Source: the human T2T-CHM13v2.0 reference genome, Homo sapiens. Taken from it: a stretch of 64,000 nt of DNA. The notes beneath the pieces were generated by a model. That model was not told the DNA's origin. It saw only the letters and a list, made by a program, of their open reading frames with translations, and made no database searches. Shown piece by piece: positions 53,601 through 55,974 of the stretch. The position numbers and the translations under genes are program-made. Numbering within the stretch: the first letter of the stretch is position 1; every line of letters begins with the position of its first letter. Where the stretch lies: assembly GCA_009914755.4 (NCBI GenBank), contig CP068257.2, positions 18,208,001-18,272,000 on the forward strand, in the 5' to 3' direction.

Positions 53601-53620
53601 TTCCTTTCACATTTTTATTT

Positions 53621-55014
53621 TTTTTATTTTTTATTTTTATTATTATACTTTAAGTTCTGGGATACGTGTGCAGAACGTGCAGGTTTGTTACATAGGTATA
53701 CACTTGCCATGGTGGTTTGCTGCATCCATCAACCCGTCATCTACATTAGGTATTTGGCCTAATGCTATCCCTCCCTAGCCCCCCACCGCCAAACAGGCCC
53801 CAATGTGTAATGTTCCTCTTCCTGTGTCCACGTATTCTCATTGTTCAACTCCCACTTATGAGTGAGAACATGCCGTGTTTCATTTTCTGTTCCCACGTTA
53901 GTTTGTTGAGAATGATGGTTTCCAGCTTCATCCAGGTCCCTGCAAAGGACATGAGCTCACCCTTTTTTATGGCTGTATAGTATTCCATGGTGTATATGTC
54001 TCACATTTTCTTTAACCAGTCTATCATTGATGGGCATTTAGGTTGGTTCCAAGTCTTTGCTTTTGTGAACAGAGCTGCAATAAACATACGTGTACCTGTG
54101 TCTTTACAATAAAATGATTTAAAATCCTTTGGGTATATACCCAGTAAGGGGATTGTGGGTCAAACGGTATTTCTGTTTCTAGATCCTTGAGGAATTGCCA
54201 CACTGTCTTCTACAATGGTTTAACTAATTTACACTCCCACCAACAGTATAAAACTGTTATTTCTCCATATCCTCTCCAGCATCTGTTGTTTTCTGACTTT
54301 TTAATGATTGCCATTCTAACTGGCATGAGATAGTATGTCATTGTGCTTTTAATTTGCATTTCTCTAATGACCAGTGATGGTGAGCTTTTTTTCATCTGTT
54401 TGTTGTCCACATAAATGTCTTCTTTTGAGAAGTGTCTGTTCATATCCTTCTCCCACTTTTTGATGGTGTTGTTTGTTTCTTCTTATAAATTTGTTTAAGT
54501 TCTTTGCAGATTCTGGATACTAGCCCTTTGTCAGATGGATAGATTGCAAAAATTTTCTCCTATTCTGTAGGTTGCCTATTCACTATGATGATAGTTTCTT
54601 TTGCTGTGCAGAAACTCTTTAGCTTAATTAGATCCCATTTGTCAATTTTGGCTTTTGATGCCCATGCCTATGTCCTGAATGGTATTGCCTAGGTTTTCTT
54701 ATAGGGTTTTTATGGTTTTAGGTCTTACATGAAAGTCTTTAATCTATCATGAGTTATTTTTTGTATAAGGCATAAGGAAGAGGTCCAGTTTCAGTTTTCT
54801 GCATATGGCTAGCCAGTTTTCCCAACACCATTTATTAAATAGGGAATCCTTTCCCAATTGCTTGTTTTTGTCAGGTTTGTCAAAGATCAGATGGTTGTAG
54901 ATGTGGGACGTTATTTCTGAGGACTCTGTTCTGTTCCATTGGTCTATATATCTGTTTTGGTACTAGTACCATGCTGTTGTGGTTACTGTAGCCTTGGAGT
55001 ATAGTTTGAAGTCA
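53621..55014 (-). mobile_element. primate L1PA-type LINE, non-inverted 3' segment (ORF2 C-terminus plus 3' UTR plus poly(A)) of a twin-primed insertion
   Basis: T-rich tail, then ttattatactttaagttctgggatacgtgtgcagaacgtgcaggtttgttacataggtatacac...cctaatgctatccctccc..., colinear with the reverse-complement L1PA 3' end for ~1.4 kb, down to ...gtagccttggagtatagtttgaagtca. Confidence 0.92.
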
Positions 55015-55957
55015 TGATCAAGTTGGCTTCATCCCTGGGATGCAGGGCTGGTTCAACATATGCAAATCAATAAATGTAATCCATCACATAAACAGAACCA
55101 ATGACAAAAACCACATGATTATCTAAATAGGTGCAGAAAAGGCCTTCGACAAAATTCTACAGCCCTTCGTGCTAAAAACTTTCAATAAACTAGGTATTGA
55201 AAGAATGTATCTCAAAATAATAAGAGCTATTTATAACAAATCCACAGCCAATATCATACTGAATGGGCAAAAGCTGGAAACATTCTCTTTGAAAACCGGC
55301 ACAAGACAAGGATGCCCTCTCTCACCTCTCCTATTCAACATAGTATTGGAAGTTCTGGCCAGGGCAATCAGGCAAGAGAAAGAAATAAAGGGTATTCAAA
55401 TAGGAAGAGAGGAAGTCAAATGGTCTCTGTTTGCAGATGACATGATTTTATATTTAGAACACCCCCATCGCCTCAGCCCCAAATCTCCTTAAGCTGATAA
55501 GCAACTTCAGCAAAGTCTCAGGGTACAAAATCAATGTCAAAAATCACGAGCATTCCTATACACCAATAATAGACAAACAGAGAGCCAAATCATGAGTGAA
55601 CTCCCATTCACAATTGCTACAGGGAGAATAAAATACATAGGAATACAACTTAGAAGGGATGTGAAGGACTTCTTCAAGGAGAACTAGAAACCACTGCTAA
55701 AGAAAATAACAGAGGACACAAATGGAAAAACATTCCATGCTTATGGATAGGAAGAATCAATATCGTGAAAATGGCCATACTGCCCAAAGTAACTTATAGA
55801 TTCAGCGCTATCCCCATCAAGCTACCATTGACTTTCTTCACATAATTAGAAAAACAACTACTTTAAATTTCATATGGAACCAAAAAAGAGCCTATATGTT
55901 TACAATATAGGCTAAGACAATCCTAAGCAAAAAGAACAAAGCTGGAGGCATCCCTTG
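55015..55957 (+). mobile_element. inverted 5' segment of the same L1 insertion (ORF2 RT region, opposite orientation)
   Basis: tgatcaagttggcttcatccctgggatgcagggctggttcaacatatgcaaatcaataaatgtaatccatcacataaacagaaccaatgacaaaaaccacatgattatctaaataggtgcagaaaaggccttcgacaaaatt... gives [44 protein letters not shown]. Track ORF 55169-55492 translates to ...[55 protein letters not shown]. Ends at ...aagaacaaagctggaggcatc, i.e. just 5' of where the minus segment begins in L1 coordinates. Confidence 0.92.
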
Positions 55958-55974
55958 ACATTTTTATTTGCAGA

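What the first reader, a model, noticed from the sequence alone, without database searches (positions are those of the whole stretch)
53609..55969. L1PA-type insertion with a twin-priming 5' inversion and an intact 12-bp TSD
The 3' part of the element (53621-55014) is minus-oriented with a T-rich tail. The adjoining 943 bp (55015-55957) are plus-oriented ORF2 RT sequence, running from aa ~[15 protein letters not shown] to ~KNKAGGI. That lies immediately 5' in L1 coordinates of where the minus segment ends (~LPDFKLYY). The whole insertion is flanked by acatttttattt at 53609-53620 and 55958-55969. The internal junction shows tca/tga microhomology at ~55014/55015. This is the textbook twin-priming structure, so one retrotransposition event explains both segments.
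Basis: seen in the sequence. Interest (0 to 1): 0.55.

Follow-up and report, generated by a model that had tools for sequence, protein, structure and literature searches.

The report
Ordinary 5'-inverted L1 (twin-priming) insertion
This is one old, dead primate LINE-1 copy whose front part was pasted in backwards during insertion, a well-known by-product of L1 retrotransposition seen in about a fifth of L1 insertions, so it is real but ordinary.

Summary
A minus-strand L1 3' piece (53640-55014, plus an A-rich tail at 53621-39) abuts a plus-strand L1 ORF2 piece (55013-55952). ACATTTTTATTT flanks the pair and occurs nowhere else in the window. On solved human ORF2p the inverted piece is residues 561/562-870 and the 3' piece starts at 873/874. 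On continuous L1 references they cover nt 1182-2111 and 2120-3561 of locus L003, so only 8 nt (ACACTACC) are missing. The flanks are an older minus-strand L1. With one copy of the 12-mer they align without a gap to four other L1 copies; with both copies a 12-nt insertion is needed. It is therefore a true target-site duplication. It was probably 17-19 bp originally (17/19 identical now), not 12. Both pieces have statistically indistinguishable divergence (6.1% vs 7.3%, p = 0.29). Topology, the poly(A) tail on one piece only, and 2-nt microhomologies (CA inside, TC at the inner priming site) fit twin priming. Corrections: the internal microhomology is CA, not TCA; the last 5 nt assigned to the inverted piece are target DNA; the numbered L1PA subfamily and orthologous empty sites could not be checked. 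Already known, low interest.

The parts
53602..53620 (.). Target-site duplication, copy next to the poly(A) tail (3' TSD in element orientation). The perfect core is 53609-53620. The probable original extent is 17-19 nt (TCCTTTCACATTTTTATTT).
   Evidence: 12-mer found exactly twice. (19-nt direct repeat, 17/19 identical). (target-derived; present once in homologous L1 copies).
53621..53639 (-). Poly(A) tail of the insertion, read as T-rich on the + strand (TTTTTTATTTTTTATTTTT). It has decayed, with two interruptions.
   Evidence: It follows directly on the L1 3' end ...AAAGTATAATAAT (minus strand).
53640..55014 (-). Non-inverted (poly(A)-primed) L1 cDNA. It covers ORF2 from the third base of codon 873 to the stop (about 53845-55014) plus the 3'UTR (about 53640-53844). 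This equals L003 nt 2120-3561. It carries a 35-nt deletion near 54658, several stops and frameshifts.
   Evidence: ORF2p 874-961, E 1e-45. (single hit, ref 2120-3561). (aa 874-1275). (indels).
55013..55014 (.). Internal junction. The dinucleotide CA is shared by the 5' ends of both L1 pieces (2-nt microhomology).
   Evidence: the two hits overlap by 55013-55014. (base-by-base comparison with references).
55013..55952 (+). Inverted (internally primed) L1 cDNA. It covers the ORF2 RT region, codons 561-870, which equals L003 nt 1182-2111. It has no poly(A) and no 3' end of its own. It carries a 12-nt insertion at about 55897-55909, a 4-nt deletion at about 55715, and several stops.
   Evidence: ORF2p 562-711, E 9e-81. 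(ends at I870)..
55951..55969 (.). Target-site duplication, copy next to the inverted piece (5' TSD in element orientation): TCCCTTGACATTTTTATTT. The core is 55958-55969. TC at 55951-52 is shared with the last two L1 bases (GGCATC), a 2-nt microhomology at the internal priming site.
   Evidence: CCTTG (55953-57) matches host-L1 homologs (C at column 13 is ancestral in 5 of 5 references) and shares derived Gs with the other copy.
55970..57054 (-). Older host L1 (ORF2 aa 653-1022, about 31% aa identity to human ORF2p) into which the element inserted. It continues for about 30-36 nt on the other side of the insertion (about 53573-53601).
   Evidence: tblastn E 4e-31.. (gapless alignment across the reconstructed empty site).

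Best explanation
A single L1 retrotransposition event of the primate L1PA lineage inserted into an older L1 by target-primed reverse transcription with twin priming.

Inferred steps, in window coordinates:
1. L1 endonuclease nicked the + strand after ...CATTTTTATTT (before GCAGAG). The T-rich 3' end annealed to the poly(A) tail and primed the first cDNA. This is the minus-oriented piece, which was copied as far as ORF2 nt 2619.
2. The minus strand was nicked 17-19 nt away.
3. Its freed 3' end (...TGTCAAGGGA-3') annealed through 2 nt (GA:UC) to an internal site of the same RNA, at ORF2 nt 2609-2610, which is 8 nt upstream of where the first cDNA stopped. It primed a second cDNA that ran about 930 nt further, to ORF2 nt 1681.
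4. The two cDNA 3' ends were joined at a CA/TG microhomology.

The result is TSD - inverted ORF2 561-870 - ORF2 873-end/3'UTR - poly(A) - TSD, with 8 nt of L1 lost. The copy has been dead since insertion and has decayed by several percent.

Shown: the anatomy, the coordinates, that the duplication is real, and age compatibility. Inferred: the order of events and the priming itself, taken from the established model.
For: - The two pieces are opposite-strand L1 ORF2 fragments with adjacent coordinates: aa 562-870 and 874-onward on solved ORF2p, and nt 1182-2111 and 2120-3561 on L1HS-like references, one hit each. An uninterrupted in-window L1 and several references read ...CATC|ACAyTACC|TGA... 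across the gap.
- The flanking repeat is unique in the window and extends to 17/19 nt.
- With one repeat copy the rejoined flanks align gaplessly to four other L1 copies. With two copies they need a 12-nt insertion. Both copies share derived bases absent from the homologs.
- A poly(A) tail is present only on the non-inverted piece. The inverted piece ends inside ORF2 directly against target DNA.
- Divergence of the two pieces: 6.1% vs 7.3% from a consensus of 50 older L1 copies, Fisher p = 0.29. The 3'/5' divergence ratio to young L1 is 1.35, within the 1.00-1.42 seen in four contiguous control copies.
- Literature: 18-22% of human L1 insertions carry 5' inversions, and in 46% of them the two cDNA ends lie within 20 bp on the L1 reference (PMC12016303). 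The model and its hallmarks are described in PMC2837659.
Against: - The first-strand nick site is TATTT/GC. It is T-rich but one base off the canonical TTTT/A or TTTT/G motifs.
- The microhomologies are only 2 nt each, about 1/16 by chance for each, so they add little.
- Against the old-copy consensus, the 3' piece is slightly more diverged than the inverted piece (ratio 1.2, controls 0.80-1.05; private substitutions 5.4% vs 3.8%, p = 0.095). The difference is not significant but it is not zero.
- Sequence alone cannot formally distinguish twin priming from a later in-place inversion of the 5' part, which gives the same topology.
- No orthologous empty or filled site was examined.
Confidence: 0.9

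Rival explanations
1. A conventional 5'-truncated L1 insertion (ORF2 nt 1681 to poly(A)) whose first ~930 bp were inverted later by a small genomic inversion. One breakpoint would be at the L1/TSD boundary and the other at ORF2 nt about 2610-2619, with 8 nt lost on repair.
For: It gives the same final topology as twin priming. The 2-nt microhomologies and the 8-nt loss are also compatible with end joining.
Against: It needs one breakpoint to fall exactly at the 5' boundary of the element, within the few bases of ambiguity, leaving the TSD intact. No inverted repeats that could drive such an inversion flank the segment (one search shows only weak 11-30 nt arms elsewhere). 5' inversions generated at insertion are very common (18-22%; PMC12016303), whereas such precise secondary inversions are not [established knowledge].
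Confidence: 0.04
2. A two-RNA variant ("dual priming" or template switching). The second cDNA was primed on a different L1 RNA molecule from the first, within the same integration event.
For: This mechanism has been proposed for related structures (PMC2837659). The slightly different divergence of the two pieces would be tolerated.
Against: Two independent RNAs give no reason for the priming site of the second cDNA to lie 8 nt from the stop of the first (P about 3e-3). Dual priming as proposed primes on the second RNA's poly(A), which would leave an inverted poly(A), and none is present. Both pieces fit the same set of reference copies best.
Confidence: 0.03
3. Two independent L1 fragments that happen to lie head-to-head, with a chance 12-mer match in the flanks.
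For: The window is dense in L1 fragments of several ages, so juxtaposed fragments are common.
Against: - The plus piece has no 3' end, no poly(A) and no TSD of its own, which TPRT does not produce.
- Coordinates adjacent within 8 nt.
- The flanking repeat sits exactly at both outer boundaries, with chance about 1e-3 even allowing slack.
- The repeat is single-copy in homologous L1s.
- The ages of the two pieces are indistinguishable.
Confidence: 0.01

Closest known systems
L1 5'-inverted insertions generated by twin priming (Ostertag & Kazazian 2001, as described in PMC2837659 and quantified in PMC12016303)
   Same: - Two opposite-oriented pieces of one L1 lie within a single TSD.
- The non-inverted piece carries the 3'UTR and poly(A).
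- The inverted piece lies at the 5' side, with its 3'-most L1 base against the TSD.
- There is a small internal loss (8 nt) at the inversion point.
- Short microhomologies are present.
- The TSD length is 17-19 bp (12-bp perfect core).
- Piece lengths (about 940 and about 1375 bp) are in the range reported for germline events (medians 751 and 571 bp).
   Different: Nothing of substance differs. The nick site (TATTT/GC) is one base off the canonical motifs, and the event is old and decayed. It is a member of this class, not a variant.
Ordinary 5'-truncated L1PA insertions (classical TPRT)
   Same: Poly(A) tail, TSD, T-rich nick site, 5' truncation (the element starts at ORF2 codon 561), and insertion into older L1 sequence.
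   Different: Here the 5'-most ~940 bp are inverted relative to the rest and 8 nt are missing at the switch point.
Twin-priming variants with inverted poly(A) / dual priming (PMC2837659)
   Same: Both DNA strands are used as primers within one integration event.
   Different: Those loci carry a 5' poly(T) stretch and little or no non-inverted L1. Here the non-inverted piece is long and no inverted poly(A) is present.

Membership tests
L1 5'-inverted insertion (twin priming) | Two pieces of L1 in opposite orientation, directly abutting | tested here: met
   the minus-strand piece is 53640-55014 and the plus-strand piece is 55013-55952. They overlap by 2 nt.
L1 5'-inverted insertion (twin priming) | The non-inverted piece reaches the L1 3' end and carries the poly(A) tail. 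The inverted piece has neither. | tested here: met
   the 3' piece aligns up to ...AAAGTATAATAAT followed by a 19-nt A-rich tail. The inverted piece ends at ORF2 codon 870 against target DNA.
L1 5'-inverted insertion (twin priming) | One target-site duplication flanks the composite, and it is a true duplication of a single-copy target | tested here: met
   (12-mer found twice only). (19 nt, 17/19). (one copy aligns gaplessly to four L1 homologs; two copies need a 12-nt insertion). (shared derived bases).
L1 5'-inverted insertion (twin priming) | The 3' end of the inverted piece and the 5' end of the non-inverted piece are adjacent on the L1 sequence (small deletion or duplication) | tested here: met
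   ref 2111 and ref 2120, with an 8-nt deletion (ACACTACC). In the literature, 46% of events lie within 20 bp.
L1 5'-inverted insertion (twin priming) | Topology: the 3'-most base of the inverted piece abuts the TSD, and the 5'-most bases of both pieces meet internally | tested here: met
   window 55952 = ref 2111 lies next to the TSD. Window 55013 = ref 1182 meets window 55014 = ref 2120.
L1 5'-inverted insertion (twin priming) | L1 endonuclease-type first-strand nick site (TTTT/A-like) | tested here: inconclusive
   the nick is at 5'-TATTT/GC-3' on the + strand. It is T-rich but one mismatch from TTTT/G. Only 63-70% of L1 insertions show a canonical site.
L1 5'-inverted insertion (twin priming) | Microhomology at the internal priming site and at the internal junction | tested here: inconclusive
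   2 nt at each (TC and CA). This is too short to exceed chance. The model does not strictly require it.
L1 5'-inverted insertion (twin priming) | Both pieces stem from one event (same age and same source lineage) | tested here: met
   6.1% vs 7.3% from the old-copy consensus, p = 0.29; ratio 1.35 vs 1.00-1.42 in contiguous controls. No significant difference, but power is limited.
L1 5'-inverted insertion (twin priming) | Orthologous pre-insertion (empty) site, or an all-or-none presence pattern across species | not testable with these tools
   No primate genome collection was available.
L1PA (primate-specific L1 lineage) | High nucleotide similarity to L1HS/L1PA ORF2 and 3'UTR, clearly closer than to L1PB/L1M-type copies | tested here: met
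   8.5% (RT part) and 11.5% (3' part) substitutions versus L1HS-like copies; only 71-80% identity to the older in-window L1s.
L1PA (primate-specific L1 lineage) | Assignment to a numbered subfamily by diagnostic 3'UTR/ORF2 positions | not testable with these tools
   No Dfam/RepeatMasker library was available. By divergence (about 4-7% own decay) a mid-age subfamily is inferred, not shown.

The most novel reading that the evidence does not exclude
The most unusual reading still open is that the inversion did not arise by classical one-RNA twin priming. It could have arisen by a second L1 RNA, or by a later precise inversion of the element's 5' part. The small, non-significant excess divergence of the 3' piece would then be real. 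Even so, it would be a known or previously proposed variant of L1 integration, not a new kind of element.
Probability: 0.07. Interest if true: 0.15.

Novelty: already known. Interest (0 to 1): 0.08.

Why it matters
It matters little beyond correct annotation. RepeatMasker-style annotation would list two L1 fragments on opposite strands, and recognising them as one event avoids double-counting insertions. It also gives clean breakpoints (8-nt loss, 17-19-bp TSD, 2-nt microhomologies) for anyone compiling twin-priming junction statistics. The element is truncated, inverted and riddled with stops, so it has no coding or mobilisation potential. About a fifth of human L1 insertions have this structure (PMC12016303).

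Tried and rejected
- PDB phmmer search with the translated reconstructed empty site found nothing. The host L1 is too diverged.
- tblastn of human ORF2p across the reconstructed site was not decisive. The one-copy and two-copy versions scored similarly and weakly (26.2 vs 28.5 bits). The question was settled by nucleotide alignment to older L1 copies instead.
- I considered reading CCTTGAC at the right junction as L1 CCTGAC, which would mean a 4-nt overlap of the two cDNAs. I rejected it as less parsimonious, because it needs a 6-nt deletion plus a 1-nt insertion within 13 nt. The target-derived reading is supported by host-L1 homologs and by derived bases shared with the other TSD copy.
- I considered CCTTG as untemplated filler and rejected it on the same evidence.
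- The bacterial promoter/terminator scan is irrelevant to this eukaryotic repeat and found nothing.
- The Rfam scan of the whole window gave no hits.
- TRF on the GC-rich left block found no monomer array.
- The original twin-priming paper (PMC311219) is not held in the library. The model is cited through PMC2837659 and PMC12016303.
- Subfamily numbering and an absolute full-length L1 coordinate check were not possible, because no full-length consensus was available.

Full report
**Observation**

ACATTTTTATTT occurs exactly twice in the 64-kb window, at 53609-53620 and 55958-55969. By chance 0.14 occurrences are expected, and none of 100 shuffles gave two.

Between the two copies lie three features:
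- a T-rich run (53621-53639);
- about 1.4 kb whose reverse complement reads as L1 ORF2 C-terminus plus 3'UTR;
- about 0.94 kb whose forward strand reads as L1 ORF2 reverse transcriptase.

**L1 coordinates without RepeatMasker**

I mapped conceptual translations onto the solved human LINE-1 ORF2p structures (8sxt, 8uw3, 8c8j).
- The plus piece starts at D562 (E = 9e-81).
- The plus piece ends at I870.
- The minus piece starts at D874 (E about 1e-45).

About three codons therefore separate the end of one piece from the start of the other.

For nucleotide resolution I fetched 80 independent L1 copies from metagenome contigs, using the ORF2p stretch 834-961 as query. These are human DNA carried in public assemblies, and the best are 100% identical to the query. 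On five L1HS-like copies each piece gives exactly one hit:
- window 55013-55952 = L003 nt 1182-2111;
- window 55014 down to about 53615 = L003 nt 2120-3561.

The 8 missing bases are ACACTACC. An older, uninterrupted L1 elsewhere in the window (28950-30356) reads straight through the same point as ...GACATC|ACATTACC|TGATTT.... In ORF2 nucleotide numbering the inverted piece is 1681-2610 and the 3' piece starts at 2619.

**Junctions**

- **Internal junction.** ...GTTTGAAGTCA|TGATCAAGTTGG... The antisense L1 match runs through ...GAAGTCA, and the sense match starts at CATGATCAAG. CA (55013-14) is shared.
- **Right junction.** ...GCTGGAGGCATC|CCTTG|ACATTTTTATTT|GCAGAG. L1 homology stops at 55952.
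- **Left junction.** ...CATTCCTTTC|ACATTTTTATTT|TTTTTTATTTTTTATTTTT|ATTATTATACTTTAAG..., which is TSD, then a decayed 19-nt poly(A) (read as T), then the L1 3' end.

**Is the 12-mer a true duplication?**

The right flank is an old L1 ORF2 on the minus strand (aa 653-1022; tblastn E = 4e-31; about 31% identity). I rebuilt the pre-insertion site from the two flanks. I then aligned it with the homologous stretch of three other L1 copies in the window, with an L1HS-like copy, and with the young element itself.
- With one copy of the 12-mer the alignment is gapless across the site, and about 30 nt of left flank continue the host L1.
- With both copies a 12-nt insertion is needed relative to every reference.

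**TSD length**

`repeat finder` independently extends the repeat to 19 nt, TCCTTTCACATTTTTATTT / TCCCTTGACATTTTTATTT, with 17/19 identical. Column by column on the minus strand:
- the right-hand copy CAAGGGA keeps the C that all five L1 homologs have at that column;
- both copies share G at column 17, where all five homologs read A;
- at column 18 both copies read G, as do two of the five homologs (two read A and one reads T).

CCTTG is therefore target DNA and not L1 or filler. The duplication was 17-19 bp and has picked up two substitutions, which is about what an element this decayed should show. The outermost TC is shared with the last two L1 bases (GGCATC), giving a 2-nt microhomology at the internal priming site.

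**One event or two?**

- The inverted piece has no 3' end, no poly(A) and no TSD of its own.
- Adjacency within 8 nt has P about 3e-3 if the pieces were independent.
- A flanking repeat this good at the two outer boundaries has P about 1e-3, even allowing +-10 nt of slack.

For age, the raw divergence from young L1 is 8.5% for the inverted piece and 11.5% for the 3' piece. Four contiguous, uninverted L1 copies of similar age show the same regional bias: their ratios are 1.00-1.42 and this element's is 1.35.

Against a majority consensus of 50 older copies the figures are 6.1% (56/923) and 7.3% (85/1167), Fisher p = 0.29. Substitutions private to this element are 3.8% vs 5.4%, p = 0.095. The two pieces are statistically indistinguishable. 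The 3' piece is nominally a little more diverged than in the leave-one-out controls (0.80-1.05). I report that as a small residual and not as evidence for two events.

**Mechanism**

The anatomy matches the twin-priming model point by point as described in PMC2837659.
1. The + strand is nicked after ...TATTT (before GCAGAG).
2. The poly(A) is primed, and a first cDNA runs to ORF2 nt 2619.
3. The minus strand is nicked 17-19 nt away.
4. Its 3' overhang anneals inside the same RNA, 8 nt upstream of the first cDNA's stop.
5. A second cDNA of about 930 nt is synthesised.
6. The two cDNA ends join at CA/TG.

The structure is shown. The order of events is inferred from the model.

The nick site is T-rich but one base off TTTT/G. 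The 2-nt microhomologies are too short to count as evidence. A later in-place inversion of the 5' part would give the same topology and cannot be excluded from sequence alone. It would, however, need a breakpoint exactly at the element's 5' boundary. Insertion-time 5' inversions, by contrast, occur in 18-22% of human L1 insertions, with the two cDNA ends within 20 bp in 46% of them (PMC12016303).

**Classification and novelty**

The element belongs to the primate L1PA lineage. It is about 90% identical to L1HS-like copies but only 71-80% identical to the older L1s in the window. It is truncated at ORF2 codon 561 and carries stops, frameshifts, a 35-nt deletion and a 12-nt insertion. The numbered subfamily could not be assigned without Dfam. 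From about 4-7% own decay I infer a mid-age L1PA, which is an inference only.

This is a textbook example of an already known structure.

**What could not be done**

No primate genomes were available, so the orthologous empty site and the insertion date remain untested. The original 2001 twin-priming paper is not in the library.

Noticed in passing
window 52137-53572: A GC-rich (0.54-0.63) ~1.4-kb block on the + strand begins GGGGTTGAGTCAAGATGGCGGCCTGGAAGTAGCTCC. From memory this resembles the start of an older L1 5'UTR. Its right end abuts the minus-strand host L1 at about 53572 with no poly(A), so it would be a 3'-truncated L1 5' end, which TPRT does not produce. TRF finds no tandem monomers and there is no second copy in the window. 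Unexplained.
   Followed up: partly
window 46620-47000 (minus strand): A weak ORF2 match (aa 1155-1272, 28% identity, E = 7e-4) lies in the same orientation as the host L1. The host element may resume here after about 6.5 kb of intervening, presumably inserted, sequence.
   Followed up: no
window 23869-26731 (+), 28950-30356 (+), 36842-37939 (+), 45466-45603: Four further L1 fragments of different ages are present: a very old one (30-55% aa identity), a 61%-aa-identity copy that is contiguous over the breakpoint region, a third ORF2 C-terminal fragment, and a 140-nt L1 3'-end scrap that is 85.7% identical to this element's 3'UTR.
   Followed up: partly
window 54658, 55897-55909 and 55715: Internal indels of the element relative to L1HS-like references: a 35-nt deletion in the 3' piece (removes ORF2 codons about 1000-1011), a 12-nt insertion GTTTACAATATA, and a 4-nt deletion in the inverted piece.
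   Followed up: yes
window 39012 (+), 43318 (-): Alu-type seed motifs are present, which fits a primate genomic origin of the window. They were not delimited.
   Followed up: no
loci L001-L080 (metagenome contigs): Public contigs labelled marine, human-gut and human-oral metagenome carry L1 copies up to 100% identical to human ORF2p over 128 aa. This is human DNA sitting in metagenome assemblies. It was useful here as a reference set, but it is contamination in those records.
   Followed up: no
window 1-64000: The Rfam gathering-threshold scan of the whole window returned no RNA family hit.
   Followed up: yes
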